Source of the DNA: a virus
Lineage: Duplodnaviria; Heunggongvirae; Uroviricota; Caudoviricetes
IMG/VR virus record: IMGVR_UViG_3300047323_000428
Coordinates: 21,208 to 85,207 of that record
DNA length: 64,000 nt
Reading direction: 5' to 3' (one strand)
The translations under genes and the position numbers were made by a program. Positions 82-63,198 of the stretch are shown here, one piece after another. Position 1 is the stretch's first letter, and each line of letters opens with the position of its first letter. The notes beneath the pieces were generated by a model that was not told the DNA's origin, did not search any database, and worked only from the letters and a program-made list of their open reading frames with translations.

Positions 82-180
82 TGCTTTTCCTTTAAGAGAG
101 AGGGAAACAGTTTCGTTTCGGGCCTAGGTCGCTTTAGTCACCGATAGGACGCCACAATACCACAAAATGGCGTCTTTGAA

Positions 181-8694: not shown

Positions 8695-9336
8695 TTACGC
8701 GCAGACGGCTTTGGCGTGAGCCACAAACGCGTCCGCACCCGTGAGTCCGGTTTGCTCTTCGATCAGCGCCATGAAGCGCGCCAGGTGCTTTTCATCTCGG
8801 CCGGCAACGGCTTTGAAGCCCAGCGCCTTCTCGAGCTTCACCTCACGCGCATCGGTCTTCTCGACGGTTTTGGCCGTCTCTGCCGCCTGCTCGCGCACTT
8901 CTGCGTCCAGATCCTCCACGAACGGAGCGTCGTTGATGATCGACAGGTCCGCGGTCATGAAGTCGAGCTCCTTCGGGTCGAAGATGCCTTCGAGGTCGAA
9001 GTCGAGGCTGGCAAGCTCTTCCTGCAGGATGCGCGCGTCGATCTCCGACAGGGCAACCCGGTTGTCCGCCAGGCGCAGCGCGCGTGCTTCCTCTTTGGAG
9101 AGGTCATCGCGCACGACCACCGGCACGTGGGTTTGTCCGAGCGAGAGTGCAGCCAGGCGCCGGCCGTGACCCGCGATGATGGTGCCGTCGGCTTCGGTGA
9201 CGATCGCCGTGTTCCAGCCGAAGGCCTTGATCGACTCGGCGATCTTCTTCACCTGTGCGTCGTCGTGGGTCTTCGCGTTCAGTTCGTAGGGCTTGAGCCA
9301 CTCGACGGGCTTGAGCACCGGTTTGAATTCGTTCAT
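8695..9336 (-). CDS. ParB-like nuclease domain protein (ParB/Srx fold)
   Basis: IVTEADGTIIAGHGRRLAA matches the ParB N-terminal GxxRxxA motif. ATG at 9334-9336 overlaps the upstream stop (ATGA). Confidence 0.6.
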   Translation of the reverse strand: MNEFKPVLKPVEWLKPYELNAKTHDDAQVKKIAESIKAFGWNTAIVTEADGTIIAGHGRRLAALSLGQTHVPVVVRDDLSKEEARALRLADNRVALSEIDARILQEELASLDFDLEGIFDPKELDFMTADLSIINDAPFVEDLDAEVREQAAETAKTVEKTDAREVKLEKALGFKAVAGRDEKHLARFMALIEEQTGLTGADAFVAHAKAVCA

Positions 9337-9551
9337 GCTTTTTCCTGATTCAGATAGGCGACCCACTGGCCTTTCGTCCAGCGACCCCAGTGCTTGGGCG
9401 TGAAAATCATTGCCTCGTAAGACGGCAGGCGCTTGAATTCGGTCGGCCAGAGCGTGCTGTCGTTGATGAAGGCGACTGACACGGTGTAGGCCATGTGGTT
9501 TCTAGCCAGCATGAGCATCACCAGGCCCATCAAAACCAAGCAGACGGTCAT
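9333..9551 (-). CDS. Small membrane protein (72 aa)
   Basis: N-terminal transmembrane helix MTVCLVLMGLVMLMLA. ATG at 9549-9551; the listed first codon is a GTG. Confidence 0.45.
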   Translation of the reverse strand: MTVCLVLMGLVMLMLARNHMAYTVSVAFINDSTLWPTEFKRLPSYEAMIFTPKHWGRWTKGQWVAYLNQEKA

Positions 9552-10163: not shown

Positions 10164-10811
10164 TTATTTCGTGAGGAGGTGAACGAGTGCGGCGCCGGCG
10201 TTCGAGAGCGAGTCGTCCTCGGTGAAGCGCTGGGCCTTCATGGTCTTTTCGATGAGGTCCGTGATGGTGCCGACGTCCTCGACGGGCACCTTGAACCGCA
10301 TGATCTGATGGGTCTGCACGACCGCTTCCTTGGGCAACGGGGTTGGGGCCGCGTCGTCATCCGGTATATCTAAATCATCCAGTTCTATATTTACGGATGA
10401 AAAGATTGAAGCGAAGTCCGCGTCCGTGTAGGGCAAGAACGTTGCGAGGTCTTCGGGCGCTCCCAGACCGTCAAGCAGTTCCGCCAGGCGTAGCGTGTCG
10501 TCGTTGCCGTAGCGGGCGTTGTCGACGAGGCCAATCTCCTTCGCTTTCTGGTCGTCGATGGCACCCACGTTCATCACGGGCACGCGGTCGAAGCCCAGAC
10601 GCATCGCAGCGTCGCGCCGATGAGCGCCACCGAGGATCTGATAGCTGCCGTCGGCAAGGGTGCGCACGATGATCGGCTTGAACATGCCGAGGCGCTTCAG
10701 AGACGCCTCGATCTTGGCCTCCTCTTCCGGGCTGCACACGTTGGTGTTCCAGGGATTGGGCTTGAGCGCGGAAGGCGCCAGTTCGAGCGTTTCGATGTGG
10801 GGCTTACCCAT
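10164..10811 (-). CDS. Second ParB-like nuclease domain protein
   Basis: ILGGAHRRDAAMRLG motif. The likely ATG at 10809-10811 is M4 of the listed ORF, which begins with a TTG. Confidence 0.55.
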   Translation of the reverse strand: MGKPHIETLELAPSALKPNPWNTNVCSPEEEAKIEASLKRLGMFKPIIVRTLADGSYQILGGAHRRDAAMRLGFDRVPVMNVGAIDDQKAKEIGLVDNARYGNDDTLRLAELLDGLGAPEDLATFLPYTDADFASIFSSVNIELDDLDIPDDDAAPTPLPKEAVVQTHQIMRFKVPVEDVGTITDLIEKTMKAQRFTEDDSLSNAGAALVHLLTK

Positions 10812-10833
10812 AGGTTTCAATGGCTTAGTTGGA

Positions 10834-13969: not shown

Positions 13970-14216
13970 GATGCGGCACTCGCCGCCGGACCCAAACTAT
14001 AAGAACCCCGCTTACCCGTCCCCACTCCCAAGTTCCCAAGAACCCAGTCCCAAGGTGGAAGTGTGCGGTGGTGCGGTTGGTGTGTGGAAGTATAAGGAGC
14101 CGAGGCCTAGGCCTACCGGGAAATATAAGGGAGCGCTTTTGGCGGTCTGGAACGAGGAAGGGAGGGCCATCGCACCGCGCGAGATTTTCTAGGACTTCGC
14201 TCTCTCGCGGTTTCGA

Positions 14217-14412: not shown

Positions 14413-14445
14413 TAGTCAGTTTTGAGTGTTTCACGTGAAACACTC
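14413..14445 (-). promoter_or_regulatory. PDM variant (TAGTCAGTTTTGAGTGTT) fused to a 22-bp perfect palindrome GAGTGTTTCACGTGAAACACTC
   Basis: The palindrome spans 14424-14445 around a CACGTG core, 10 nt upstream of the 14402 start codon. An identical palindrome occurs at 15104-15125. Confidence 0.8.
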
Positions 14446-14682: not shown

Positions 14683-15075
14683 TTAAACGAGTGTGAGCGC
14701 AAACGGATAAAACGCTTTGAGCGCTTCGTCAAACTCAAGTTCGAGCGCAGACAATTCGACTTGATACGCTGCACGCATGCGCTCTTTCGAGAAAACGACG
14801 TCAGATTCATGCACGATGCACGCGGTATGCTCTGCGTTGTCATACGTGACAACGATCGCGTATTCATACGCACCGTTAGCAACGTAGAGCAATTCGACGC
14901 TCTGCGAGTAGTTGACGATACGAACGCGTTCGCTGAGTTCGTCTGCGTTGTCTAGCAAGTCATTTGCTGCGCTGAGTGCGAGCGGTGCAAAGACAACCGG
15001 TTTAACCGCTTGCGCTTCGTTGCGCGCGTCGCGTGCATCTGCGAGTTCTGCGAGTGCTTTTACGAGAGTGTTCAT
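14683..15075 (-). CDS. Hypothetical protein (130 aa) in the compositional island
   Basis: ATG at 15073-15075. The listed N-terminus MFHVKHS is merely the translation of the upstream palindrome. Codon usage is atypical. Confidence 0.5.
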   Translation of the reverse strand: MNTLVKALAELADARDARNEAQAVKPVVFAPLALSAANDLLDNADELSERVRIVNYSQSVELLYVANGAYEYAIVVTYDNAEHTACIVHESDVVFSKERMRAAYQVELSALELEFDEALKAFYPFALTLV

Positions 15076-15103
15076 TCTGTGCGTCTCTGAGTGTTGAGAA
15101 AAT

Positions 15104-15138
15104 GAGTGTTTCACGTGAAACACTCATCATTGACTGTT
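15104..15138 (-). promoter_or_regulatory. Second copy of the palindrome GAGTGTTTCACGTGAAACACTC plus a half-PDM (CATCATTGACTGTT)
   Basis: Perfect 22-bp palindrome at 15104-15125, about 30 nt upstream of the 15075 start codon. Confidence 0.8.
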
Positions 15139-15143
15139 ACGCG

Positions 15144-15989
15144 TTACGCGTTAAACATCGCTTGCAGCTTTTGCGCTGCTTTCGATTCCGTAAACGTCAT
15201 TGCATCGTCTTTTTTCGACTTCGCAACGTTGCAGACATTCAGAAAGCGCATTGCTTGTCGCGTGCTGCTTGCTTGCGTGCTTGCGGTTGACGGTGCGCAA
15301 TCTTTGTATGCGCGCACCGCTTCGGTTTGCATCGCTTCGTCAAACACGATTGCACGCGAGAGCGCACGTTGTGAACCGCGGTTCGAGAGCGAATGCAGCG
15401 AAACAAGATTCTGCATGATCGAGCGCGTGTAACCGTCAAAAACCGAAGTCATACCGGTTGCGAGTGCGAAAAGCGACTTGCGGATTTTTTGCGCTGCGTA
15501 AATCGCAACGTAATCGTGCGCTTTGTCGTCTGCGATTGCGTAAGCGGTTGCAAGCGATTCAAAATCAACTTCGAGTTCTACGCACTTTTCAATTGCGATC
15601 AGCGCATTGCGACCGCTCAGCGCGTTGAGTTCTGCGAGCATGTTCTTTGCGAAGTTCGCAGACGGTGCGTTGTCAATGCGCACTTGAACCGATTCGAGCA
15701 AGAGCGCTTGCGCTGCTTCTGCTTTTGCGCGCAACTCTTCTGCGCTCAGCACAACCGGTTGCGCTTCGTCTGCTTGCGCTTCGTTCGCTTCGGTTTCGAC
15801 TGCAAGCGTTTCGACTGCTTGCGCTTCGTCTGCGCTGAGCGCTTCGTCTGCTTGCGCTGCGAGTTCAGCGTTTTGCGCTGCGATCATTGCTGCTTCTGCT
15901 TGCGCTGCTTTCTCTGCTTTCGTGAGTCGCTTCGTCATTTTCGTTTCTCGCTTAGTGTGTTGTTTTGTTTTCGTCGCTGCACCGTGCAT
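15144..15989 (-). CDS. Hypothetical protein (about 280 aa; Ala/Glu/Gln-rich coiled-coil N-terminal part and a C-terminal domain) in the compositional island
   Basis: First ATG at 15987-15989; an alternative ATG lies at 15938. Strong GCA/GAA/CAA/AAA codon bias unlike the surrounding genome. Confidence 0.5.
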   Translation of the reverse strand: MHGAATKTKQHTKRETKMTKRLTKAEKAAQAEAAMIAAQNAELAAQADEALSADEAQAVETLAVETEANEAQADEAQPVVLSAEELRAKAEAAQALLLESVQVRIDNAPSANFAKNMLAELNALSGRNALIAIEKCVELEVDFESLATAYAIADDKAHDYVAIYAAQKIRKSLFALATGMTSVFDGYTRSIMQNLVSLHSLSNRGSQRALSRAIVFDEAMQTEAVRAYKDCAPSTASTQASSTRQAMRFLNVCNVAKSKKDDAMTFTESKAAQKLQAMFNA

Positions 15990-16000
15990 CGACAAGACGA

Positions 16001-16029
16001 ATTATGCACGTATCTTTTGCGACGTGCAA
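16001..16029 (-). promoter_or_regulatory. Sigma70-like promoter TTGCAC-N17-CATAAT driving gene 15144-15989
   Basis: On the minus strand the -35 element is TTGCAC (16024-16029), the spacer is 17 bp, and the -10 element is CATAAT (16001-06). This leaves a leader of about 10 nt. Confidence 0.6.
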
Positions 16030-16075
16030 CCTTTTTCTTGCACGTGTTTTAGAGTGCGTTCTCTAAAAATAATTG

Positions 16076-16105
16076 TTGCACGTTAGAAAAACGACGTGCT
16101 ATAGT
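16076..16105 (+). promoter_or_regulatory. Sigma70-like promoter TTGCAC-N18-TATAGT pointing into the T-depleted region
   Basis: The -35 element is at 16076-16081 and the -10 element at 16100-16105. A weaker upstream element (TTGCACGTG ... TAAAAAT, 16038-16070) repeats the TTTTTCTTGCACGTG word seen at the 12788 promoter. Confidence 0.55.
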
Positions 16106-16112
16106 TCTATCA

Positions 16113-16360
16113 CTGCAACGCGAAACGGAGTGACGAACGAAACGAACGAAAGCGAGAATCGACCGAAGACTGAAACCGAGCGACGCGAGACGCGACGCGA
16201 CGAACCGAAAAACGGTGCGCTCGAACCGAGCGACGGAAAAACGGAACGCGCGACGCGACGAAGCGAAAAACGGATCGCACGCAGTGAGACTGCGCGACAC
16301 GTGACGCTCGAACCGCGCGAGATGCGCGACGCACGCGCTGCGCCGGCGGCCGGCGCATGA
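16113..16360 (+). ncRNA. Candidate non-coding transcript with an extreme T-depleted composition
   Basis: About 250 nt with very few T on the plus strand (CGA/ACG/GAA-type repeats), directly downstream of the 16076-16105 promoter. It ends at the GCGCCGGCGGCCGGCGC palindrome (16340-16356). It contains no convincing ORF. Confidence 0.3.
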
Positions 16361-16396
16361 GGGAGACGGCCTAGGAGGTTTGCCTGCCGCCTTGGT

Positions 16397-16469
16397 CAAA
16401 ACTCCCTATCAGTGTCGGGCGAGGCTCCCGTTCAAATTCCCTATCAGTGTCGGCGACGGCTCCCGTTCC
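16397..16469. repeat. Two tandem iteron-like units (U1 16397-16433, U2 16434-16469)
   Basis: CAAAACTCCCTATCAGTGTCGGGCGAGGCTCCCGTTC and AAATTCCCTATCAGTGTCGGCGACGGCTCCCGTTCC. The conserved core is GTGTCGG-N6-GCTCCCGTTYC. Confidence 0.75.
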
Positions 16470-16554
16470 TTTCCATTCCACTCCACACCCCTAGGCCGAT
16501 CCCCTAGGCCGTGAGCAACAGCACCAAAAGGCGCCACACGGGCGCCCTTCTCCC

Positions 16555-16743
16555 TCAATACAGCTCCATCACACCCACACGGCCGTTGGTGCGCACTTGG
16601 CGACGCAGGTGCAGGATCTCCGCCTCTTCCTGCTGCTCCTCGAGCCAGTCGATAAGTTCGTGCGGCTTGGCGGCGCGGTGCTGGTGGTCGATGGGCTCAG
16701 CAGCGGTGATGGTCGATTCGAAGGCGCGGTGCGTGGTGTTCAT
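16555..16743 (-). CDS. Small hypothetical protein (62 aa)
   Basis: ATG at 16741-16743 (M60 of the listed ORF) and an acidic C-terminal half. The support is weak. Confidence 0.3.
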   Translation of the reverse strand: MNTTHRAFESTITAAEPIDHQHRAAKPHELIDWLEEQQEEAEILHLRRQVRTNGRVGVMELY

Positions 16744-16751
16744 GGCAGTAA

Positions 16752-16892
16752 TCAGGTTTGAGTATTGGAGCGGATACGACGGGAAAGAAACAGGATGAGG
16801 TCGACGAACTTCATCCAGGCAAAGGTGATGCCGGCGCCCGTGAGGGCGATCAGCAACACCGCGAGAATCAGTTGGGCGGTGTCTTGGGTCAT
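16752..16892 (-). CDS. Small hydrophobic membrane protein (46 aa), not in the ORF table
   Basis: ATG at 16890-16892. The sequence is MTQDTAQLILAVLLIALTGAGITFAWMKFVDLILFLSRRIRSNTQT. It abuts the stop of 16896-17180. Confidence 0.35.
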   Translation of the reverse strand: MTQDTAQLILAVLLIALTGAGITFAWMKFVDLILFLSRRIRSNTQT

Positions 16893-16895
16893 GGC

Positions 16896-17180
16896 TTATC
16901 CGACGAGCATCGGGGAGCACTCGGGATCGACTTCAGGGTTCAAGTCGAAATACAGGGCGCGCTGACAGGCGCGGTTGCAGGCGTCGATGTGATCGGCTCG
17001 GGCAATCTCGTAGACGGCGAAATCGCAACCGTGGGTTTCTTGTTGGAGCGCGACGAACTCGTCACCGTCGGAGGTGATGAGGAACTGGGAGAACGTCGAG
17101 TCGAGGAACAAGAACACGTCGGTCTTCGTGTTGTAGAAAGCGCGCAAGTCAGTGATCGGCAGCGTCGTCGGTGTTTTCAT
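16896..17180 (-). CDS. Hypothetical protein (94 aa)
   Basis: ATG at 17178-17180 (M23 of the listed ORF), downstream of an approximately 600-bp non-coding repeat region. Confidence 0.4.
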   Translation of the reverse strand: MKTPTTLPITDLRAFYNTKTDVFLFLDSTFSQFLITSDGDEFVALQQETHGCDFAVYEIARADHIDACNRACQRALYFDLNPEVDPECSPMLVG

Positions 17181-17408
17181 CGCGTTTCTCGCGTTGTTTG
17201 AAAGTGATGCTATTGTCTCGACCCGCGAGAGGGACAACTGTGGCAATCGTTCGAGGCGGCTCGGGAGCTGGTCAGGCTCTCTCCCTACCGCGGCCTAGGC
17301 GTTTTCCCAAGGCCTTCCCCTGCTCTCCTCTCTCCTACCGGCCTAGGCCGTCTCCCATAGGCGGCTACCCAAGGGGATCGGCCTAAAAGGGGCCGAGGAC
17401 AATCCAAT

Positions 17409-17446
17409 CAAAACTCCGTAGGGTGTCGGCCGCGGCTCCCGTTTCC
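17409..17446. repeat. Iteron-like unit U3 (CAAAACTCCGTAGGGTGTCGGCCGCGGCTCCCGTTTCC)
   Basis: Same GTGTCGG...GCTCCCGTTTCC core as U1 and U2. Confidence 0.75.
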
Positions 17447-17483
17447 ACGGGGATCGGCCTAGGCCTCGCAGGTGCGCGGGGCG

Positions 17484-17522
17484 AAAAATTTGGAATGGGT
17501 GTCGGCACCGGCTGCCGTTTCC
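17484..17522. repeat. Iteron-like unit U4 (AAAAATTTGGAATGGGTGTCGGCACCGGCTGCCGTTTCC)
   Basis: Core conserved. Its hairpin is CGGCA-N5-TGCCG. Confidence 0.7.
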
Positions 17523-17548
17523 TCGACGCTCTCCCCACGCACGCGCAC

Positions 17549-17590
17549 GGGGTTTGGGTTGGTTTGGTTTTAGGGGTTGGTTTTGGGTTT
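17549..17590 (+). repeat. Telomere-like G/T tract with G-quadruplex potential (GGGGTTTGGGTTGGTTTGGTTTTAGGGGTTGGTTTTGGGTTTT)
   Basis: Runs of GGGG/GGG separated by T-rich loops. It is followed at about 17633-17646 by CCCCCCCTCCCCCC. Confidence 0.6.
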
Positions 17591-17809
17591 TAAACTGCAT
17601 CCGATGAGGAACCCTACGGTGAAGAACCAAGTCCCCCCCTCCCCCCACAGACCTATAATCAGTGAGAGCAGGGGAGAACTCGATCCCACCAAGGGCACAC
17701 ATCGGAGGCTATCCGCGTATGGCAACCCAACAGGCAAGAACCAAGTCCCCCAGAAGAAGAAGCGACTCCCGACGCCAAGTGCTCGTCGGCAAACAATGTG
17801 CGGGAATCA

Positions 17810-17827
17810 TAGTCAATGGTGACTGTT
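17810..17827 (-). promoter_or_regulatory. PDM copy (TAGTCAATGGTGACTGTT) about 600 nt upstream of the nearest minus-strand CDS
   Basis: The motif matches, but the long non-coding stretch downstream of it contains iteron units U3 and U4 and the G-tract. Confidence 0.65.
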
Positions 17828-18010
17828 GGGTCAAGCGGCAATGTTGCGTGCGGGTAACGTGGGAGGGATCGGTTGGCAGGTGGGAAGTGTAAGAGTTGGG
17901 CGGCGCGGAACATTTTTCGTCGCTCCATAGCCATCCCCTCTTCCACCCGCGCTACTCCCCTTCCACGCAGCCCCTCTCCTCTGTTCCCCACACCTACCGC
18001 CCCTCTCTCT

Positions 18011-18798: not shown

Positions 18799-19146
18799 AG
18801 GCCTTCTCTCTGCGGTTTCATTGCTTGATTGTCTCGTCTGCGGTGTGGGGTTGCTGCGGGAATCGTCGATTGGCTCTGAGCGCTTTAGAGACGTTTTGAG
18901 CGATCGGGGCGCGCGCTGCTGTCTGCGTGCGTCTTGAGCTTGGTGGCGCGCTTGTAGCGCGTTTTGACGCGTCCCTGAAGCGGTTGTGTCGCTCGGTTCG
19001 TCTGCGCTCGGTGCGCTTAGTCGGGTGTCAGAGTTGGCTTATACTTCTGTCGCAGATACGGCCAACTATAAGAGTGGAAATTCCCTTATAGATCAATGGC
19101 TTAGGAGTGATGGCCAAGGATCTCGGCCTAGGGCCGGTAACTCGAC

Positions 19147-22807: not shown

Positions 22808-22976
22808 GCCGCAAGCCCAATTTTGCATCGTTGTTCGCACGAAACACGCGCATTTAGGCCGCGCTATGCGAGCGTTTTAGCGCGTTGGTGTGCGATAGGT
22901 ATGCTGCGCACGTATCTCAGCATTGACTAACGCAAGATGCGCACACCTCGCTTCTGGCCTAGGCCGCGAGCAGACG

Positions 22977-23003
22977 AAAAAAGAGGCGCCACTAGGGCGC
23001 CTC
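22977..23003 (-). terminator. Rho-independent terminator (GAGGCGCC-actag-GGCGCCTC with an A6/T6 run)
   Basis: 8-bp GC stem. The A-run at 22977-22982 is the T-run on the minus strand. Located downstream of gene 23062-23439. Confidence 0.75.
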
Positions 23004-24472: not shown

Positions 24473-24907
24473 AGGTTAGTGTGTATCGCAGCAAGTGTTA
24501 GTCTGACGTGCGATTCGAGGACAGTGAACAGTCACCGCTGAGTCCCCCGAACCGCTTCGTTTCTTGCTGTATCGCGTTGTTTGCTGCGATGAGTGAATAT
24601 TAAAGACTGACTGTTGGAGTGTGGTCGGGCACCGGCGAGGAGTTGCCAGGCGGAAAACGCTGTATGAATGTGCATGCCGGCGTGCGCGAATAGCACGTGG
24701 CGCCAGGGGTGTCTGCGGGTATCGGCTAGGCCGGTGGCGGTGGACGTTGGGAGAGATGGAGAGGCCTAGGGGCTCGGCCTAGGCCACTCACCTAGGCCGT
24801 GGCGCCAGGGCGCGCGAGGAAGTGGCGAGGCGTTGGCTTGGGAGTGGCGAGGGACATGGCATGGCAGCGCCGTGGGGTAACGCCAACAGGTAAAGCGCCC
24901 GCACACC

Positions 24908-24948
24908 TTAAAAGTCCCAGTATGTGTCGGGCGCCGCTCCCGTTTCAG
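24908..24948. repeat. Iteron-like unit U5 (TTAAAAGTCCCAGTATGTGTCGGGCGCCGCTCCCGTTTCAG)
   Basis: Same core as U1-U4. It sits at the edge of a 470-bp non-coding gap that also holds three CCTAGG and one GCTAGG site, and two short direct repeats (GTGGCGCCAGGG twice, AGTGGCGAGG twice). Confidence 0.7.
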
Positions 24949-25130
24949 TCACAGGGCTTGTAGAGGCCGTTGATGGCGTTGTCGATCGCCTCGCGCCAGT
25001 CTTTGCCGTAGGCCACGCATCGACCGACTTCGGGCACGTGAAACGTGACCCAGTGCCGGTTTCGGTCGCGGTCGAATTCGGGGAAGCTGTGGAGCACGAA
25101 GTCCAGGCGCGGGGTGTCGTAGAGATTCAT
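24945..25130 (-). CDS. HicB-like (UPF0150) antitoxin-fold small protein
   Basis: HVPEVGRCVAYGKDWREAIDNAINGL resembles the HicB/UPF0150 core. The ATG at 25128-25130 overlaps the upstream stop. Confidence 0.35.
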   Translation of the reverse strand: MNLYDTPRLDFVLHSFPEFDRDRNRHWVTFHVPEVGRCVAYGKDWREAIDNAINGLYKPCD

Positions 25131-25591
25131 CACCACGCCCCGACGTCGTCGTCCACGTCAGTCGTGGGCTTATTCGGATCGGGCGGCTTGGGCGGCTCTA
25201 CCGGCGCGAGAGTGTTGCCTACCTCGTGCAGCACCTCCTCGCCCGTCTCCAGATCCACCTCCAGCTCGCTCTCGGTCCACTTGGCGATGAACGCGGTGTA
25301 GAAGTCGAGGGCATCCTTCTCGTTGGAGAAGGTCTTGCCGTCATCGACCGGGTCCGTGCGCAGCCGGCCATCGCTCGCGTAGTTGCCGACGGTCAAGATG
25401 AAAAGTGGCCACGTGTCCGAAAAGCTGCTGTCGGCGTTGGGCACGCGACCATTCCACTCGAGGATCACCCGGACCTTGCCGTTGTCGAACTGCTTGAGCG
25501 TCGTGTAGGACTCGTCCGCCTGCTTTTCCTTCCAGGCCGCGAGGCTGATCTTCTCGCCGTCGCGGTCGTAAAAACTGATCTTGGGCATCAC
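25130..25591 (-). CDS. Hypothetical protein (153 aa; C-terminus ...DDDVGAW)
   Basis: ORF coupled to its neighbours. Confidence 0.5.
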   Translation of the reverse strand: MMPKISFYDRDGEKISLAAWKEKQADESYTTLKQFDNGKVRVILEWNGRVPNADSSFSDTWPLFILTVGNYASDGRLRTDPVDDGKTFSNEKDALDFYTAFIAKWTESELEVDLETGEEVLHEVGNTLAPVEPPKPPDPNKPTTDVDDDVGAW

Positions 25592-27638: not shown

Positions 27639-28283
27639 TCAGTGGAGTGCAGCGTGCGCTCGGGCGGCGCGGTCGTATCGGATGGCGGTCAGCGTGTCGC
27701 GCGTGGCGATGTCGGCAAGCGGGTCGGAAATCACCAGCGCGCCATCGGCGGGCCGCACCATCAGGTTCTTGGAGTGCAGATCCAGCCCCCAGCCGTCCTC
27801 GACGTTGCTGGCGAACTTGTGCAGATCGGCAAATGCCTCTTGTAGCGACTCGGGCAGCGCCTCATCCATCGACAGTTCTTGAAGGGCGAGCGTGAGCCCT
27901 TCGCGCCGCTTGTGAAAGCGCAGGTGCGTATTGGCATGGGTCGTCGCCTGCGTGCAGATACGGCGGGCCAGGGCGCGGTTCTCGCCACCCTTCGGCAGCG
28001 GCTCCAGCTTTTCGCACTCGAAGAGGTAGACGGCGTGACCGTCCACCTCGCCCACGTCGCCGTAGTTGTAGGAAACCTCAGTGAAGTGTCGGCCCTGGCA
28101 GCCGATCACCTGATCGGTGCCAAGCATGTAGGCGTATTGGTCGAGCGTGAGCTTCAAAACCGTGTCGCCATTGTCGAATACGGCGGAAAACGCTCCGCGC
28201 GCCATGATCTTCTTGCCGGCGATCGCCGGGTGCATCCTCGCCTTCTTGATTCCTGCGTCGCTCGTGCGCAAAGCCTTCCACAT
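27639..28283 (-). CDS. Protein-kinase-like fold protein (putative Ser/Thr kinase)
   Basis: Gly-rich loop-like segment ARGAFSAVFD, a VLKL segment (VAIK-like), a catalytic-loop-like segment GLDLHSKNLMV (D...N), and ISDP (DFG-like). ATG at 28281-28283 with a GGAGGTG ribosome-binding site (M5 of the listed ORF). Confidence 0.4.
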   Translation of the reverse strand: MWKALRTSDAGIKKARMHPAIAGKKIMARGAFSAVFDNGDTVLKLTLDQYAYMLGTDQVIGCQGRHFTEVSYNYGDVGEVDGHAVYLFECEKLEPLPKGGENRALARRICTQATTHANTHLRFHKRREGLTLALQELSMDEALPESLQEAFADLHKFASNVEDGWGLDLHSKNLMVRPADGALVISDPLADIATRDTLTAIRYDRAARAHAALH

Positions 28284-28310: not shown

Positions 28311-28361
28311 TAGTCAATTGTGACAAACGAAGCGTGGATGATAAAGTCAGTTTTGACTGTT
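28311..28361 (-). promoter_or_regulatory. Tandem PDM pair: a degenerate copy TAGTCAATTGTGACAAAC (28311-28328) and a consensus-like copy AAGTCAGTTTTGACTGTT (28344-28361)
   Basis: Both lie upstream of the 28283 start. Confidence 0.7.
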
Positions 28362-33521: not shown

Positions 33522-33539
33522 TAGTCAGTTTTGACTGTT
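33522..33539 (-). promoter_or_regulatory. PDM consensus copy (TAGTCAGTTTTGACTGTT)
   Basis: 27 nt upstream of the 33494 start. Confidence 0.85.
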
Positions 33540-44058: not shown

Positions 44059-44101
44059 GTCAAAACTGACTACGTGCAGATTATAGTCAGTTTTGACTGT
44101 T
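44059..44101. promoter_or_regulatory. Inverted pair of PDM copies: GTCAAAACTGACTA (44059-44072, opposite orientation) and TAGTCAGTTTTGACTGTT (44084-44101)
   Basis: This is the only copy in the window in the reverse orientation. The two copies together form a 43-bp palindromic arrangement between the RuvC-like gene and gene 43542-44045. Confidence 0.75.
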
Positions 44102-56565: not shown

Positions 56566-59500
56566 TTACGACAGAATCTCCGCCGTCTTCTCGAACACCG
56601 CCGCGAGCACGTCAGCCTTCGCCGGGTCAAAGAGGACTTGCTGCGCGTTGATACCGCACACAACGCTGGCGTCCAGCGTCTTGTCGAAGATCACCTTGCC
56701 AGCAAGCTCGGCCGTGCCGCCCTTGATGCCCGGCACAAAGTGCTTGATCGTGGCCGAGCCGAGCGCGACGATCACCGCCGGCTTAATGAGCTCCAACTCG
56801 CGCTGCAGGAAGCCCTTGCAGTTGTTGATCTGGCCGTTGGAGAGGAACTTGTCGTTCTTCTTCGCCTTGACGAGCGACGTGTAGTAGCCCTCTGCCGGAT
56901 TCAGCCCCGCCGCCTTGATCGCTTCCTTGATGAAATCCGCGGCGTCGCCTTCGAGCATCTTGTCGGCCTTCTCCTCCTGCCAGCTTGGGCAGTCGGACAC
57001 CACCATGAACTTCACCGTGTGCTTGGCGCGCACCGTCGGGTGAGGCTGTCCCGCGAGGTCGCAGCTTTCGCAGCCCTTGTATTCCTGCACGAGCGAAATC
57101 ACCTTCGCCCGCAAGAACTTCTCCTTCAGGTCGGTCGTGCGATCGGCCTTCACCGCGTCGATAATCAGCCCGCCCATGAGTTCGGTCTGGTCACGCCGGC
57201 GGTCCAGGTGTCGCGCGGGCAACGATCCGGGTTTAATCGGCACGAGCGCACCGACCTTGTCCAGCACATCACGCACCTTCGAATTGACTTTCGAGCCCTT
57301 CGCCTCTGTGATCTTGAGGAAGTGCTCCTCGTCACGGAAGGCGCCGCCCTCGAGATTGCGCAGCTCCACCATCCGCTTGGCCGTGTTCTCGGAGATCCCC
57401 TTCACTGCCGAGAATGGCGCGAGCAGGTGGTTGTCGTCGGGGATGGTGAAGCGCTCGCGCGAGAGGTTGATATCGGGCGGCAGCACCTCGATCCCGTATT
57501 CACGCGCTTCCTCGACGAGCTTGGGCAACTTGTCCTCGTCCACGATCGACATACAGGCAGCGAAGTATTCCGCCGGGTAGCGCACCCGCACCCAGAGCGA
57601 CCAGTAGCTAATGATCGAATACTCGACCGCGTGGCTCTTGTTAAAACCGTAGCCTGCAAAGGCCTCGATCTTGTCGAAGATGCGACCCGCGACCTCTTCG
57701 TTCATGCCGGACGTGGAGTGACAGCCATCGACCCACTTCTGTCGCATTTCGGCCATCTTGTCCTTGTCCTTCTTGCCCATCGCTTTCCGCAGGTGGTCCG
57801 CTTCCGCCTTCGTGAAACCTGCGAGGTCGACCGCGACCTGCATGACCTGTTCCTGGTAGACGATGACGCCATAGGTGTCCTTGAGCGCCGCCTCCATGTT
57901 CGGGTGGTCGTAGCTGATCGACTTCACGCCCTGCTTGATCTGGATGAAGTCGTCCATCAGGCCCGAGTCCATTGGGCCCGGTCGATAGAGCGCGGTGGCC
58001 GCTGTCACGTCATCGAACGTAAGCGGCCCACCCATCGCCAGATTCCTGAGCAGCGCCTTCATGCCGCCTGAGTCGAACTGGAACACACCCGTCGTGTCGC
58101 CCGCGCCAAATGCCTGCATGACGTCCGATTCACCCAGCGGAATGTCGAGGTAGTTGACCTTCACCCCGTGCCGCTCTTCGATGTAGCTCTTGGCGATCTC
58201 CAGCACATCGAGCGTGGAGAGCCCCAGAATGTCCATCTTGACCAAGCCCCAGTCCTCGACGACCCGCTTGTCCCAGTTCACCACCGGCGACTCGCCACGC
58301 GTTTCAACGACCGCACGGTTCACAAGCGGCTCGCCCGCGACCACGATACCCGCTGCGTGCTGGCCGAAGTTGCGCATGGCGCCTTCGAGCTTCAGGGCGT
58401 GGCCCCACACCTCCGGGTGCTCGTCGCGGAACTTCTCCAGCTCGGGCACGGCTTTGGCCGATTCCGTGAGCGTGAGGGAATTGCCGTGCTCTTTGGGCAC
58501 GAGCTTGGTAGCGGTCAGTTCGAGCGGCTGCATGCCATGCACGCGGCCGGTGTCGCGTAGCGCGGAGGCAGAAGCGAGCGTCGAATAGTTGGAGATGCCG
58601 GCGACGCGATCCTTGCCGTATTTGGCGGTCAGGTATTCGATCACCAGATGGCGCTTGCTTGACATGAAATCGAGGTCGGCGTCGGGCAAGTCCAGACGCT
58701 CGGGGTTGATGAAGCGCTCGAACAGGAGATTGAACCGGATTGGATCCACATCGGTGATGCCAAGCAGGTAAGCGACGAGCGAGCCGCCCACCGATCCGCG
58801 GCCTGGGCCGACGATGATGCCGTTTTCCTTCGCCCACATCACGAGGTCTTCCACGAGCAGGAAGTAGCCCGCGAAGCCCATTTTCTTGAGCACCGACAAC
58901 TCGTATTGGAGTCGCTCCTTGTAGACGGGCATGTCGGCCGCCGTCGGCATGTAACCGAGCACGGCCACCGAGAAGCGCCGCTTCCAGCCTTCGAGACACT
59001 TCTTGCCGAGCGCCATGAACTCGTTTTCGGCCATCTGCGGCAGCGACACCGGCTGCTTCTTGAACTCGTAGCCACAGGCGGCCGCGATCTTCTCGACGTT
59101 CTGCAGGCCGGCGAGCCAGAGCTTCGGTTCGTTCACGCCATAGAACTTGACCGCGCGAGCGTGCGCGGCCTTCATCTTGTCGACCAGGTGCTTCGGTTCG
59201 TGAAAGCCGAAGTCCTTCACGTGCTGAATCGAGCGGAACTTCGTGTCCATCTTGTCGCCGTCGGCGATCACCTTCAGCACCGCGAGCGTGTCAGCGTCCT
59301 CGTTCTCCCGATAGTAGGTCGGGAACGTGATGATCGGCTGAATGTCGAGGATGCGCGCAATCGTCAGCGCCTTTGCGTTGAGCGTGTCGTAGAGCGGCGT
59401 GTCGATCGGCACGAGCTCCACGAAGAAGTCGTCGGCGAAGAAGTCCTTGAGCTTTCGCGCGTGCGCTTCGGCTTGCGGGTGATGGAACAGGCCGTTGTAG

Positions 59501-59931
59501 TCGCCGGTCGTGACGACCACGCCCTCGAGCTCCAGCACGTCGTTCAGGCCCACGCGCGAGACATAGTAGAAATACTCGGGCGAATTGGCCTTCGACAGCA
59601 GCTTGATAAGGCTCGACACCCCGCGCTCGTCCTTCGCGTAGACCTTGAGCGTCACCATCGGGTTCGGCTTGTCTGCGTGCGTGTCGCCCTTCTTGGGCTT
59701 GCGGTGCGTCGGATCGTCGACCACGCGCAACTCGCAGCCGATGATCGCCTTGATGCCGACTTTCTTCGCACGATTGGCGAAGTCGACCATCGCGTGCAGG
59801 CTCATCGCGTCGGTGAGCGCAACCGACTCGTAGCCCAGCTCCTTCGCCTTTGTGACGAGTTGGTCGACCTGAAGCATCGAGCGGCCGATGGAGAAGTCGC
59901 TCCTTACGCCGAGCGCGTGCCCGAGATTCAT
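56566..59931 (-). CDS. dnaE: DnaE-type (Pol III alpha-like, PHP domain) DNA polymerase with a C-terminal UDG-like (family 4/5 fold) domain
   Basis: PHP domain at the N-terminus, polymerase core, and a (HhH)2 motif GISENTAKRMVELR. The last ~200 aa align with the family-4 uracil-DNA glycosylase fold (…CKGFLQRELELIKPAVIVALGSATIKHF…), but the GEAPG and GrPFvG motifs are replaced by SDCPSW and DKMLEG. Confidence 0.8.
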   Translation of the reverse strand: MNLGHALGVRSDFSIGRSMLQVDQLVTKAKELGYESVALTDAMSLHAMVDFANRAKKVGIKAIIGCELRVVDDPTHRKPKKGDTHADKPNPMVTLKVYAKDERGVSSLIKLLSKANSPEYFYYVSRVGLNDVLELEGVVVTTGDYNGLFHHPQAEAHARKLKDFFADDFFVELVPIDTPLYDTLNAKALTIARILDIQPIITFPTYYRENEDADTLAVLKVIADGDKMDTKFRSIQHVKDFGFHEPKHLVDKMKAAHARAVKFYGVNEPKLWLAGLQNVEKIAAACGYEFKKQPVSLPQMAENEFMALGKKCLEGWKRRFSVAVLGYMPTAADMPVYKERLQYELSVLKKMGFAGYFLLVEDLVMWAKENGIIVGPGRGSVGGSLVAYLLGITDVDPIRFNLLFERFINPERLDLPDADLDFMSSKRHLVIEYLTAKYGKDRVAGISNYSTLASASALRDTGRVHGMQPLELTATKLVPKEHGNSLTLTESAKAVPELEKFRDEHPEVWGHALKLEGAMRNFGQHAAGIVVAGEPLVNRAVVETRGESPVVNWDKRVVEDWGLVKMDILGLSTLDVLEIAKSYIEERHGVKVNYLDIPLGESDVMQAFGAGDTTGVFQFDSGGMKALLRNLAMGGPLTFDDVTAATALYRPGPMDSGLMDDFIQIKQGVKSISYDHPNMEAALKDTYGVIVYQEQVMQVAVDLAGFTKAEADHLRKAMGKKDKDKMAEMRQKWVDGCHSTSGMNEEVAGRIFDKIEAFAGYGFNKSHAVEYSIISYWSLWVRVRYPAEYFAACMSIVDEDKLPKLVEEAREYGIEVLPPDINLSRERFTIPDDNHLLAPFSAVKGISENTAKRMVELRNLEGGAFRDEEHFLKITEAKGSKVNSKVRDVLDKVGALVPIKPGSLPARHLDRRRDQTELMGGLIIDAVKADRTTDLKEKFLRAKVISLVQEYKGCESCDLAGQPHPTVRAKHTVKFMVVSDCPSWQEEKADKMLEGDAADFIKEAIKAAGLNPAEGYYTSLVKAKKNDKFLSNGQINNCKGFLQRELELIKPAVIVALGSATIKHFVPGIKGGTAELAGKVIFDKTLDASVVCGINAQQVLFDPAKADVLAAVFEKTAEILS

Positions 59932-63161: not shown

Positions 63162-63198
63162 GGTAGGGAACGCTAGTCACTTTTGACTGTTCCCTACC
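63162..63198 (-). promoter_or_regulatory. PDM copy (TAGTCACTTTTGACTGTT) embedded in a 10-bp perfect inverted repeat GGTAGGGAAC ... GTTCCCTACC
   Basis: Same architecture as 37678-37711. Lies between the vWA gene and the MoxR gene start. Confidence 0.8.

What the first reader, a model, noticed from the sequence alone, without database searches (positions are those of the whole stretch)
16397..17522. Iteron-like 36-39-bp units (five copies) and clustered GGCCTAGGCC palindromes in large non-coding gaps: a candidate origin or protein-binding array
Units U1 and U2 (16397-16469, tandem), U3 (17409-17446), U4 (17484-17522) and U5 (24908-24948) share the core (C)AAAA-N-TCC-N6-GTGTCGG-N6-GCTCCCGTTYC. 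Each contains a short GC hairpin followed by TTTCC.
- The same gaps hold CCTAGG palindromes (near 16370, 16490, 16503, 17294, 17342, 17458; also 14106, 19127, 22958, 24765, 24779, 24791 and 123).
- They also hold a telomere-like G/T tract and long polypyrimidine tracts.
- Direct repeats plus an easily distorted element is the classic layout of replication-origin iterons.
- Alternatively the units may be partition or packaging sites, or weak terminators.
- They are not CRISPR-like, since there are no regular spacers.
Basis: partly seen in the sequence, partly recalled or inferred. Interest (0 to 1): 0.65.

Follow-up and report, generated by a model that had tools for sequence, protein, structure and literature searches.

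The report
Conserved boundary repeats in a phage-plasmid
The five 38-bp repeats and the CCTAGG palindromes are real and are conserved in related phage-plasmids, but they look like protein-recognised signals at operon boundaries rather than the iterons of a replication origin, and the factor that reads them is unknown.

Summary
Five same-strand copies of a ~39-nt unit lie at 16396-16469, 17407-17521 and 24908-24946. All 13 CCTAGG sites in the window are non-coding.

The window is an SSU5/RHEph10-like phage-plasmid. Orthologous units sit at syntenic positions in related viral and metagenome contigs and in a Paraburkholderia prophage. Their core, GTGTCGGC-NN-C-N-GCTCCCGTT, is nearly invariant. 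A shorter analogue occurs in an Acinetobacter phage-plasmid. RHEph10 lacks the units, the CCTAGG sites and the surrounding genes.

The units show no covarying structure and fold no better than shuffled sequence. Each lies at a fixed ~23-nt distance from a GGCCTAGG-type palindrome. Each sits at the upstream edge of a long gap, just after the preceding transcription unit. Separate conserved sigma70-type promoters serve the downstream genes.

Iteron hallmarks were not met: spacing is irregular, no Rep signature was found, and the skew signal is uninformative.

My best reading (confidence 0.4) is a duplex-DNA recognition module for an element-encoded protein that acts on transcription at operon boundaries. 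Rivals are copy-control or origin sites for the adjacent winged-helix protein, promoters for the phage ECF-like sigma, and an RNA signal. Function is inferred, not shown.

The parts
16396..16434 (+). Unit U1. The motif is written on the + strand and local genes are on the - strand.
   Evidence: PWM score 48.9 bits. Exact core match. Orthologue at L020:18697-18735.
16431..16469 (+). Unit U2, in tandem with U1 (35-nt period).
   Evidence: PWM score 52.0 bits. TRF finds 2 copies at period 35. The orthologous pair in L020 is 85 nt apart.
17407..17445 (+). Unit U3.
   Evidence: PWM score 47.9 bits. Orthologues in L020, L012, L005, L038 and L045.
17483..17521 (+). Unit U4, a variant type with AAAYTTGG and GCTGCCG.
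   Evidence: PWM score 43.0 bits. The same variant occupies the syntenic position in L020:17265, L012:7789, L005:582 and L045:8023.
24908..24946 (+). Unit U5. It overlaps by 2 nt the stop codon of the minus-strand 63-aa gene 24945-25136.
   Evidence: PWM score 50.7 bits. Orthologues in L020:9508, L002, L033 and L034. The extended stretch 24885-24950(-) folds to -29.5 kcal/mol, z = -4.5, followed by UUUAC.
16368..16377 (.). GGCCTAGG palindrome phased with U1.
16488..16512 (.). Two CCTAGGCCG motifs (16490 and 16503), lying between the minus-strand terminator and U2.
17292..17301 (.). GGCCTAGGCG palindrome.
   Evidence: Conserved in L020, L012 and L038.
17340..17349 (.). GGCCTAGGCC palindrome.
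17456..17465 (.). GGCCTAGGCC palindrome between U3 and U4.
24763..24798 (.). Cluster of three CCTAGG palindromes (24765, 24778 and 24791).
   Evidence: A triple cluster is conserved at L020:9647-9678.
14104..14113 (.). GGCCTAGGCC inside 'module A'.
19125..19134 (.). GGCCTAGGG, about 20 nt beyond a bidirectional terminator.
22956..22965 (.). GGCCTAGGCC, about 20 nt beyond the minus-strand terminator at 23003-22983.
121..128 (.). Isolated GGCCTAGG in a non-coding gap.
16524..16546 (-). Intrinsic terminator of the preceding operon (GGCGCCC-GTGT-GGCGCC followed by TTTTGG). It lies upstream of U2 and U1 in gene sense.
   Evidence: Read from the sequence. A twin terminator at 22983-23003 was found by the scan (family D19).
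17806..17834 (-). Sigma70-type promoter CTTGAC-N17-TATGAT with a CAGTCAccatTGACT operator. U4 and U3 lie in its transcribed leader.
   Evidence: Conserved in L020, L012, L038 and L045.
17560..17795 (-). Conserved structured leader RNA.
   Evidence: Alifold energy -67.6 kcal/mol, with 5 pairs showing compensatory changes among 3 sequences.
16001..16033 (-). Conserved sigma70-type promoter TTGCAC-N17-CATAAT for the 264-aa winged-helix gene. It is the actual proximal promoter, 370-430 nt downstream of U2 and U1 in gene sense.
   Evidence: Conserved in 4 relatives.
24597..24602 (-). The -10 element TAATAT of the conserved promoter block for the 310-aa gene, about 310 nt downstream of U5 in gene sense.
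   Evidence: Footprint between the window and L020.

Best explanation
**What it is**
- The units are copies of an asymmetric ~38-40-bp cis element.
- Read on the gene-sense (minus) strand, the consensus is RRAACGGGAGC-yGys-GCCGACAC-N3-TA-N-GRA-N-TTTT.
- The element is followed at a fixed distance by a GGCCTAGGCC-type palindrome.
- The composite belongs to a lineage-specific maintenance/accessory module (about 12.5-26 kb in the window) of an SSU5/RHEph10-like phage-plasmid.

**What is shown**
- The sequence is conserved over large evolutionary distances, while base-pairing is not.
- The element always sits at the upstream edge of a long inter-operon gap: at a stop codon, after an intrinsic terminator, or after a leader-RNA hairpin.
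- The downstream genes have their own conserved sigma70-type promoters.

**What is inferred**
- The unit is read as duplex DNA by a sequence-specific protein encoded by the element. Candidates are the co-occurring 264-aa winged-helix protein and the two ParB-like proteins.
- The palindrome is read by a dimeric regulator.
- Together they control what passes or starts at operon boundaries. This could be a polar barrier or insulator, as with mycobacteriophage 'stoperators', or a regulated secondary start point.
- They are not the iterons of a replication origin.
For: - **Selection in relatives.** Units are found at syntenic positions in relatives whose neighbouring proteins are about 40-70% identical to the window's (best matches per gene). 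The 24-nt core is invariant and the flanks are free.
- **Same layout in a beta-proteobacterial host.** A Paraburkholderia prophage has the same order: promoter, leader, U4-type unit, U3-type unit, then 3 CCTAGG.
- **Partial analogue in a gamma-proteobacterial plasmid.** Acinetobacter plasmid pA52-1 carries a GGCCGACAT-containing repeat followed by CCTAG(G) motifs.
- **No RNA structure.** Alifold finds only 3 invariant pairs on either strand. Cognate and non-cognate flank pairing do not differ (p ~0.2). Units fold like shuffles or worse. There are no Rfam hits.
- **Fixed phasing with the palindrome**.
- **Boundary position.**
  - U5 overlaps a stop codon. In four orthologues the stop codon differs but still abuts the unit.
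  - U2 and U1 follow a terminator.
  - U4 follows the leader hairpin.
- **Separate promoters.** Conserved proximal promoters lie elsewhere in each gap.
- **Co-occurrence.** RHEph10 lacks the units, the CCTAGG sites and essentially all genes of 12.5-30 kb, including the winged-helix protein. Every unit-bearing relative seen has that protein.
Against: - No binding or transcription data exist, so the partner protein and the effect are inferred.
- About 50 bits of information is far more than a normal operator needs.
- The orientation 'lock' rests on only about 4-5 independent site positions, because the other copies are syntenic orthologues.
- U2 and U1 follow an intrinsic terminator, where an extra barrier would seem redundant.
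- The 36-39-bp span and the (T/G)GAAAC start also fit a promoter.
- The AT-richest 100 nt of the window (16011-16110), a 29-nt x3 tandem repeat and a DNA-binding-protein gene lie within 400 nt of U1. An origin in that neighbourhood is therefore not excluded.
Confidence: 0.4

Rival explanations
1. The units are iteron-like or copy-control (incompatibility) sites for the adjacent 264-aa winged-helix protein acting as a plasmid initiator. The origin would lie around 16.0-16.4 kb, and the distal units (17.4 and 24.9 kb) would serve as handcuffing sites.
For: - U1 and U2 lie about 460-530 nt upstream of the start (15938) of the gene for a DNA-binding winged-helix protein.
- That protein co-occurs with the units across relatives and is absent, with the units, from RHEph10.
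- The AT-richest 100 nt of the window is 16011-16110, and a 29-nt x3 repeat lies at 16191-16278.
- parS sites and a MazEF pair are nearby, which marks a plasmid-maintenance neighbourhood.
- The cumulative skew maximum falls at 17.6 kb.
- The Acinetobacter phage-plasmid has a unit-like repeat in the same position upstream of its homologue.
Against: - Spacing is not conserved or helically phased: 35 nt in the window against 85 nt in the orthologue. The other copies are 1 and 7.4 kb away.
- The AT-rich segment is fully accounted for by two conserved divergent promoters.
- The skew maximum is shallow, sits on a plateau to about 34 kb, and has terminus-type rather than origin-type polarity.
- The family's RepC-like initiator in RHEph10 maps next to CobT, a position that falls outside this window.
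Confidence: 0.2
2. The units are leftward (gene-sense) promoters for RNA polymerase carrying the phage-encoded ECF-like sigma (61198-61845). They would give the three downstream operons a second, phase-specific promoter, and the CCTAGG palindrome at about +20 to +30 would act as an operator.
For: - The phage encodes a sigma-70 region 2 / ECF-like protein that is conserved across this phage-plasmid family.
- The unit length of 36-39 bp equals a promoter span.
- The gene-sense 5' end is (T/G)GAAAC, the classic ECF -35 'AAC' motif (established knowledge). A conserved TA lies about 18-20 nt downstream of it.
- Units are intergenic, co-oriented with the genes and sometimes tandem.
- High copy-to-copy conservation is typical of phage-specific promoters.
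Against: - The invariant bases fill what would be the spacer, while the would-be -10 is variable.
- No standard geometry fits by inspection of the consensus. CGAC lies 12 nt after AAC, not 16-17. Sigma54, sigma28 and sigma32 spacings all fail by 3-5 nt.
- Units lie 230-430 nt from the next start codon, while conserved sigma70-type promoters sit close to the genes.
- No units lie upstream of the structural or replication genes.
- RHEph10 has the sigma but no units. Its sigma is only 27% identical.
Confidence: 0.2
3. The units act at the RNA level, either in the gene-sense transcript (a processing, antitermination or 3'-end signal read as sequence) or in antisense/plus-strand RNAs whose CUCCC boxes pair with GGAG-type sequences such as module A.
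For: - U4 and U3 lie in a transcribed leader downstream of a conserved promoter and a structured RNA.
- U5 lies within a strong terminator-like hairpin.
- A conserved plus-strand promoter at 16078-16107 fires towards U1 and U2.
- In the 207-nt blocks of L027, L039 and L033, alifold pairs GGAACGAGGA of module A with UCCCGUUCC of the unit.
Against: - No covariation supports any structure.
- The module A-unit pairing involves only invariant bases.
- U2 and U1 lie behind an intrinsic terminator in gene sense.
- There is no Rfam family and no complementarity to the rRNA/tRNA operon.
Confidence: 0.12
4. The units are neutral or selfish repeats: MITE-like elements, recombination scars, or solitary CRISPR-repeat mimics.
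For: They are dispersed short repeats in non-coding DNA. Their length of 36-39 nt resembles CRISPR repeats.
Against: - Syntenic copies keep an invariant 24-nt core while their flanks diverge freely, which indicates purifying selection.
- There are no terminal inverted repeats and no target duplications.
- No arrays were found in 185,579 genomes or in metagenomes. Every hit locus had 1-2 copies and no regular spacing.
Confidence: 0.03

Closest known systems
Mycobacteriophage L5 / Cluster A 'stoperators' (asymmetric repressor sites that stop elongating RNA polymerase). From my own knowledge: Brown et al. 1997, EMBO J.
   Same: - They are asymmetric sites dispersed through a temperate phage genome.
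- They lie in short intergenic regions or at gene ends.
- They have one orientation relative to transcription.
- Copies are highly similar to each other.
   Different: - Stoperators are 13 bp long and number 24-30 per genome. Here the sites are about 38 bp and number 5 per window.
- Stoperators share their sequence with the immunity operator. Here the likely immunity-type operator is a different, palindromic motif, CAGTCA-N4-TGACT, at about 28 sites.
- Binding and polarity are untested here.
Plasmid iterons (P1 incC/incA, RK2 oriV, pPS10, F) bound by winged-helix Rep initiators. From my own knowledge.
   Same: - They are direct repeats in one orientation near the gene of a winged-helix DNA-binding protein.
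- They sit in a plasmid-maintenance neighbourhood.
- Extra copies at a distance could act as control loci.
   Different: - Iterons are 17-22 bp long, occur in arrays of 3-9 with helical phasing, and sit next to an AT-rich unwinding element.
- Here the repeats are 38 bp, at most 2 in tandem, with 35 or 85 nt spacing. The others are kilobases away.
- No Rep signature was found.
KorB operators (OB) of IncP plasmid RK2 and other ParB-family sites (parS, Noc NBS). From my own knowledge.
   Same: This comparison applies to the GGCCTAGGCC palindromes.
- They are short perfect palindromes dispersed in promoter and intergenic regions of a plasmid-like element.
- The element encodes ParB-family proteins, two in the window.
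   Different: - The palindrome is 10-12 bp rather than 13-16 bp.
- A canonical parS is present separately.
- It is not known which protein, if any, binds CCTAGG.
- RHEph10 has ParB-like genes but no CCTAGG at all.
Phage-specific promoters (T7/SP6 class; SPO1 and phiEco32 sigma-dependent promoters). From my own knowledge.
   Same: - They are long, nearly invariant, orientation-locked intergenic motifs, sometimes tandem.
- U1 and U2 read CCGACACTGATAGGGAG, which is reminiscent of the SP6/T7 sequence GACACTATAG / CACTATAGGGAG.
   Different: - No single-subunit RNA polymerase gene was seen in the window or in RHEph10.
- The TATA-GGGAG-like part is not conserved among the units.
- The geometry does not fit sigma70-family promoters.

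Membership tests
Iteron-type replication origin | Array of three or more direct repeats with regular, helically phased spacing | tested here: not met
   At most 2 units are in tandem. Spacing is 35 nt in the window against 85 nt in orthologue L020. The other intervals are 976, 76 and 7425 nt.
Iteron-type replication origin | Adjacent gene for a Rep initiator | tested here: inconclusive
Iteron-type replication origin | AT-rich unwinding element next to the repeats | tested here: inconclusive
   The AT-richest 100 nt of the window (16011-16110) lies 290 nt from U1. It coincides with two conserved divergent promoters.
Iteron-type replication origin | Compositional-skew inflection at the site | tested here: inconclusive
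   The cumulative G-C maximum at 17.6 kb is shallow and sits on a plateau to about 34 kb. It has terminus-type polarity and is influenced by G-rich non-coding tracts and by gene strand. Only 64 kb of about 110 kb is visible.
Intrinsic terminator | Stable GC-rich hairpin directly followed by a U-run | tested here: not met
   The units fold like shuffles, with z between -1.3 and +1.4 on both strands. Only U5 with its flanks forms such a hairpin (z = -4.5). Genuine terminators nearby have a different sequence.
Structured non-coding RNA / Rfam family | Conserved secondary structure with compensatory changes, or a match to a curated model | tested here: not met
   There are 3 invariant pairs and 0 compensatory changes on either strand among 14 sequences. 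The cognate-pairing test gives p ~0.2. There are no Rfam hits.
CRISPR array / solitary repeat unit | Identical repeats with regular spacers, or identity to a host CRISPR repeat | tested here: not met
   Spacing is irregular and internal positions vary. Genome and metagenome scans found no arrays.
Sigma70-family promoter (including ECF type) | Conserved -35 and -10 elements separated by a non-conserved spacer of 16-18 bp | tested here: not met
   An ECF-like AAC lies at the 5' end, but the invariant bases occupy the spacer and the -10 position is variable. The consensus scan found no sigma70-type site in the units. Recognition by the divergent phage sigma cannot be tested here.
parS / ParB centromere | 16-bp palindrome TGTTNCACGTGAAACA or similar | tested here: not met
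   The units are asymmetric. Perfect parS sites lie elsewhere, at 14427-14442 and 15107-15122.
Stoperator-like polar repressor sites | Asymmetric site, one orientation relative to transcription, at gene ends or in intergenic regions | tested here: met
   All resolvable copies are antisense as written and lie at the upstream edge of the gaps. Only about 4-5 positions are independent.
Stoperator-like polar repressor sites | Bound by the phage repressor and blocks elongation in one orientation | not testable with these tools
   This needs ChIP or EMSA and orientation-swap reporter assays.
KorB/ParB-type dispersed operator (for the CCTAGG palindromes) | Short palindrome confined to regulatory regions of an element that encodes a ParB-family protein | tested here: met
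   All 13 sites are non-coding. The half-site consensus is AGG-C-C-G. Two ParB-like genes lie at 8695-9366 and 10164-10820. Binding is untested.

The most novel reading that the evidence does not exclude
The unit plus palindrome would be a new kind of polar protein-DNA barrier, or part of a transcription-primed plasmid origin, in SSU5-like phage-plasmids. The repressor-controlled promoter at 17834 makes a structured, G-run-rich leader RNA carrying a G6AG7 run like the mitochondrial CSB II element. In this reading, the units just downstream are where the transcript is stopped or processed. They would hand it over to the replisome as a primer, or block RNA polymerase and replication forks in one direction in the manner of Ter/mTERF sites.
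Probability: 0.08. Interest if true: 0.75.

Novelty: new variant of a known kind. Interest (0 to 1): 0.45.

Why it matters
SSU5-like phage-plasmids are widespread, including in Acinetobacter, Klebsiella and Salmonella, and they spread resistance genes. Their plasmid-state control circuits are largely unmapped.

This analysis defines a set of conserved non-coding signals for one clade:
- the 38-bp unit;
- the phased CCTAGG palindrome;
- a CAGTCA-N4-TGACT operator at about 28 promoters;
- parS sites;
- a structured leader RNA;
- 'module A'.

It also names testable candidate binding proteins. If the units prove to be polar barriers or copy-control sites, they would explain how lytic and maintenance operons are insulated in the plasmid state. 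They would also provide compact, orientation-dependent parts for engineering.

Tried and rejected
- **Structured RNA.** No covariation, no cognate pairing and no Rfam match.
- **Terminator.** The units are not more stable than shuffles.
- **Solitary CRISPR-repeat mimic.** No arrays anywhere.
- **rRNA or tRNA mimic or complement.** An apparent likeness to 16S helix 44 did not survive alignment against an E. coli rrn operon with shuffle controls.
- **Small ORF in module A.** A 17-codon frame is interrupted by TAG in half the homologues.
- **Standard promoter geometries.** By inspection of the consensus, sigma54, sigma28, sigma32 and sigmaE spacings are each off by 3-5 nt.
- **Master-repressor operator.** That role fits the palindrome CAGTCA-N4-TGACT better, because it overlaps promoters throughout the window.
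- **Partition site.** Canonical parS lies elsewhere.
- **Sequence-string literature searches.** Nothing relevant was found. Keyword searches gave no description of these motifs.
- **DNA similarity searches.**
  - DNA-level searches of the region found nothing in the phage collection or the plasmid collection.
  - A 44-nt unit query against plasmids gave only chance-level coding hits.
- **RHEph10 as a comparator.** It has no units and no analogous repeat family.
- **Identity of the 264-aa and 310-aa proteins.** There are no PDB sequence hits. The fold search gives only a generic winged helix.
- **afdb50 fold library.** It was unavailable.
Full report
**What the window is.** Protein-family scans identify a large siphophage with plasmid features. 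It encodes:
- a portal protein and a large terminase;
- a DnaE-type polymerase with a fused UDG domain;
- ribonucleotide reductase, RtcB, an SbcC-like ATPase and CobS/CobT-like proteins;
- two ParB-like proteins;
- an ECF-like sigma factor;
- a MazEF pair.

The terminase is 62% identical to that of Rhizobium phage RHEph10. It is about 60% identical to Pseudomonas 'nickie'-type phages and to Salmonella phage SSU5. Gene order matches RHEph10. From about 13.5 kb to 64 kb nearly all genes are on the minus strand.

**Checking the observation.** Repeat finding, pattern search and a position-weight scan all recover exactly five strong copies. They lie at 16396-16434, 16431-16469, 17407-17445, 17483-17521 and 24908-24946, all on the + strand. 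The core pattern has 6 matches at up to 3 mismatches against 1.1 expected, and no shuffle out of 100 reached that. The sixth match is a weak coding-region hit.

CCTAGG occurs 13 times against 4.4 expected. GGCCTAGG gives 18 strand matches against 0.76 expected. All 13 sites lie in the ~16% of the window that a crude gene model calls non-coding (P ~5e-11). This gene model has known errors, but every site sits in an obvious gap.

Three details of the description needed correction:
- The claimed GC hairpin is an invariant 3-bp pairing without covariation, and the units fold no better than shuffled sequence.
- The five bases between the two core blocks are constrained, with consensus C-S-R-C-R.
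- The palindromes and the units are phased. A GGCCTAGG-type motif lies about 23 nt from the AAA block of most units, and often another follows the unit.

**Relatives.** An exact-pattern scan of viral contigs, followed by genome and metagenome scans, found the motif in several places:
- a 113-kb IMG/VR contig with five copies at positions syntenic with U1 to U5, including the U4-type variant;
- a 110-kb contig, a 74-kb contig and a 41-kb contig;
- beta-proteobacterial material, namely a MAG contig, Paraburkholderia ginsengisoli and large metagenome contigs.

Some single hits in coding DNA of unrelated contigs are chance-level. About 40 chance hits are expected for 16 specified bases in a collection of that size (my estimate).

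A Paraburkholderia sp. genome carries a syntenic prophage-like region with the same order of elements:
- a sigma70-type promoter with a CAGTCAAAACTGACT operator;
- a leader;
- a U4-type and a U3-type unit;
- three CCTAGG;
- then a gene;
- further on, the winged-helix gene followed by a parS.

The 'beta' copies therefore come from the same phage family, not from unrelated elements.

Across 31 non-redundant copies the invariant positions are AAA, GTGTCGG and GC(T)(C)CCGTT, with strong C at two inner positions and a TA five bases before the core. Part of this invariance was imposed by the search patterns. The first scan, however, specified only the core, and every family member it found had the AAA block.

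RHEph10 has no unit, no analogous repeat family and no CCTAGG at all in 115 kb. It also lacks homologues of almost every window gene between 12.5 and 30 kb.

An Acinetobacter phage-plasmid (pA52-1) has the same gene neighbourhood. It carries two copies of a 32-nt repeat containing GGCCGACAT-CC-TA-T-run. Each copy is followed by CCTAG(G) motifs, and one lies just after a stop codon and about 400 nt upstream of the winged-helix homologue. This looks like a shortened analogue of the right half of the unit.

**Anatomy of the three gaps.** Alignments with orthologous gaps give clear footprints.

- **Gap 1, the U5 gap (gene sense, read from 24946 down to 24473).**
  - The unit overlaps the TGA of a 63-aa gene. 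In orthologues the stop codon differs (TGA or TAA) but still abuts the unit.
  - In U5 and its closest orthologue, the core forms the 5' arm of a strong hairpin followed by a U-run (z = -4.5).
  - A triple CCTAGG cluster follows, then a conserved block.
  - Next comes a conserved promoter-like block (CAGTCAG... TAATAT) about 130 nt before the 310-aa gene.
- **Gap 2, the U4/U3 gap.**
  - A conserved CTTGAC-N17-TATGAT promoter at 17834-17806 carries a CAGTCA-N4-TGACT palindrome in its spacer.
  - A ~235-nt conserved leader follows. It folds to -67.6 kcal/mol in a three-sequence alignment, with some compensatory pairs.
  - Then come a conserved hairpin (17552-17533), U4, GGCCTAGGCC, U3, two more palindromes and the small gene starting near 17182.
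- **Gap 3, the U2/U1 gap.**
  - The order is the intrinsic terminator of the preceding operon (16546-16524), two CCTAGG, U2, U1 and one CCTAGG.
  - A segment of ~300 nt follows that is more conserved between the window and L020 than the flanking proteins are.
  - Then comes a pair of divergent sigma70-type promoters with TTGCACGT repeats.
  - The leftward one, TTGCAC-N17-CATAAT, is conserved in four relatives and serves the 264-aa gene.

In every gap the downstream gene therefore has its own conserved promoter. The unit sits at the far upstream edge, just after the end of the previous transcription unit.

**What the units are not.**
- **Not a structured RNA.** See the covariation, pairing and Rfam results above.
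- **Not terminators in themselves.** See the folding result above.
- **Not CRISPR-like.** There are no arrays in 185,579 genomes or in the metagenome set.
- **Not parS.** Two perfect TGTTTCACGTGAAACA sites lie at 14427 and 15107.
- **Probably not the immunity-type operator.** CAGTCA-N4-TGACT occupies about 28 promoter-overlapping sites across the window (48 strand matches against 0.75 expected).
- **Not rRNA mimics**.
- **Not described in the searched literature**.

**Origin hypothesis.**
- *Against it:*
  - Spacing of the tandem pair is 35 nt here and 85 nt in the orthologue.
  - The other copies are 1 kb and 7.4 kb away.
  - No Rep signature was found.
  - The family's RepC-like initiator in RHEph10 lies next to CobT, a position that falls beyond this window's right end.
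- *Not excluded:*
  - The AT-richest 100 nt of the window (16011-16110), a 29-nt x3 tandem repeat (16191-16278) and the gene of a winged-helix DNA-binding protein lie within 400 nt of U1.
  - The cumulative G-C curve has its maximum at 17.6 kb.
- *Caveats on the skew:*
  - The maximum is shallow: 194 against 177-179 at 28-29 kb.
  - It has the polarity usually associated with a terminus.
  - It is partly produced by the purine-rich and G/T-rich non-coding tracts.
  - Only 64 of about 110 kb is visible.

I therefore rate the origin reading at about 0.2.

**Promoter hypothesis.** The gene-sense unit starts with (T/G)GAAAC, the classic ECF -35 motif. It spans a promoter-sized 36-39 bp, and the phage family encodes an ECF-like sigma. 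Against this, the invariant bases fill the would-be spacer and the would-be -10 is variable. No standard spacing fits, and the units are far from the genes they would serve. No units precede the structural or replication modules. I rate this reading at about 0.2.

**Best-supported reading (0.4).** The evidence combines as follows:
- the sequence is invariant without any structure;
- the element is asymmetric;
- it is phased with a palindrome;
- it sits at operon boundaries;
- it co-occurs with a lineage-specific gene set that includes a winged-helix protein.

Together these point to a duplex-DNA recognition module for element-encoded proteins acting on transcription at operon boundaries. The closest functional precedent I know is the mycobacteriophage stoperator. 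For the palindromes it is the dispersed KorB/ParB-type operator. Both comparisons are analogies from my own knowledge, not tested memberships. The steps from 'conserved site' to 'protein-bound' and to 'polar barrier' are inferences.

**Verdict.** The finding is real and is conserved beyond this genome. The origin interpretation is not supported as stated, and the mechanism remains open. It is a moderately interesting, apparently undescribed cis-element family in an under-studied phage-plasmid clade.

Noticed in passing
14427-14442 and 15107-15122: Two perfect chromosomal-type parS sites (TGTTTCACGTGAAACA), each inside a longer inverted repeat, flank a small minus-strand gene (~14683-15123). 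A syntenic parS lies in the Paraburkholderia prophage at L045:10702. This is the likely partition site of the plasmid state.
   Followed up: partly
about 28 sites across the window, e.g. 181-196, 17811-17825, 28345-28359, 33523-33537, 44085-44099, 63175-63189: The palindrome CAGTCA-N4-TGACT gives 48 strand matches against 0.75 expected. It sits in the spacer and -10 region of sigma70-like promoters before most operons. It is probably the operator of a global (immunity-type) repressor, or a core promoter element of this phage family. It is also present in L045, L010 and L020.
   Followed up: partly
17560-17795 (minus strand), plus hairpin 17533-17552: A conserved, strongly structured leader or non-coding RNA lies downstream of the promoter at 17834. 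Alifold gives -67.6 kcal/mol. The RNA contains two copies of a ~40-nt repeat (GGGGGACTTGGTTCTT...) and a G6AG7 run. Its CA-rich 3' tract pairs with the 5' G-rich segment. There is no Rfam match.
   Followed up: partly
14088-14195 (+): 'Module A' is a conserved non-coding block made of TATAAGG boxes, GGTCTGGAACGAGGAAGGGA and TTCTAGGACT. It is shared with Paraburkholderia ginsengisoli, several metagenome contigs and an IMG/VR contig. In three of those sequences it is followed about 95 nt later by a unit, which makes a 207-nt conserved block. A 17-codon frame in it is not conserved.
   Followed up: partly
16001-16110 and 16191-16278: This is the AT-richest segment of the window. It holds divergent sigma70-type promoters and TTGCACGT/ACGTGCAA repeats, which are likely autoregulatory operators of the 264-aa winged-helix gene. 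Next to it lie a 29-nt x3 purine-rich tandem repeat and a ~60-nt stretch that is nearly identical in L020. A plus-strand non-coding transcript running towards U1 and U2 is plausible.
   Followed up: partly
15144-15938 (-): A 264-aa protein of unknown family (phrog_4202) has a confident AF2 model (pLDDT 84): a helical body plus a C-terminal winged helix. Homologues occur in this phage clade, in Paraburkholderia and in ~100-130-kb Acinetobacter phage-plasmids. They are absent from RHEph10.
   Followed up: yes
28070-28108 (+): A weak unit-like stretch (PWM score 14 bits) lies inside a minus-strand coding region. A similar stretch sits at the syntenic place in L020 (6545-6583). It could be a decayed copy or a coding constraint.
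   Followed up: no
13998, 14091, 14124, 19067, 19084(-), 21150, 37663(-), 54083: TATAAGR / CTATAAG boxes are enriched, at 7-8 against about 1 expected. They cluster in module A and just beyond the MazEF pair. In some relatives a TATAAG lies directly upstream (gene sense) of a U4-type unit (L045, L012, L005).
   Followed up: no
L040-L042 (RHEph10, whole genome): There is complete avoidance of CCTAGG, with 0 sites in 115 kb at 60% GC. In the window, CCTAGG survives only in non-coding DNA. This suggests restriction-type avoidance with functional retention at regulatory sites.
   Followed up: no
56566-59931 (-) and 61198-61845 (-): The DnaE-type polymerase carries a C-terminal uracil-DNA-glycosylase domain. 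Nearby is an ECF-like sigma factor that is conserved across Rhizobium, Cupriavidus, Methylobacterium and Acinetobacter phage-plasmids.
   Followed up: partly
L047 4226-4500, 4816-4857, 1479-1530, 1952-2008 (Acinetobacter pA52-1): Dense arrays of 8-bp-period TAGA/TATAG-type repeats lie in the long gaps upstream of the winged-helix homologue. They may be the AT-rich counterpart of the CCTAGG clusters, or a centromere or iteron array.
   Followed up: no
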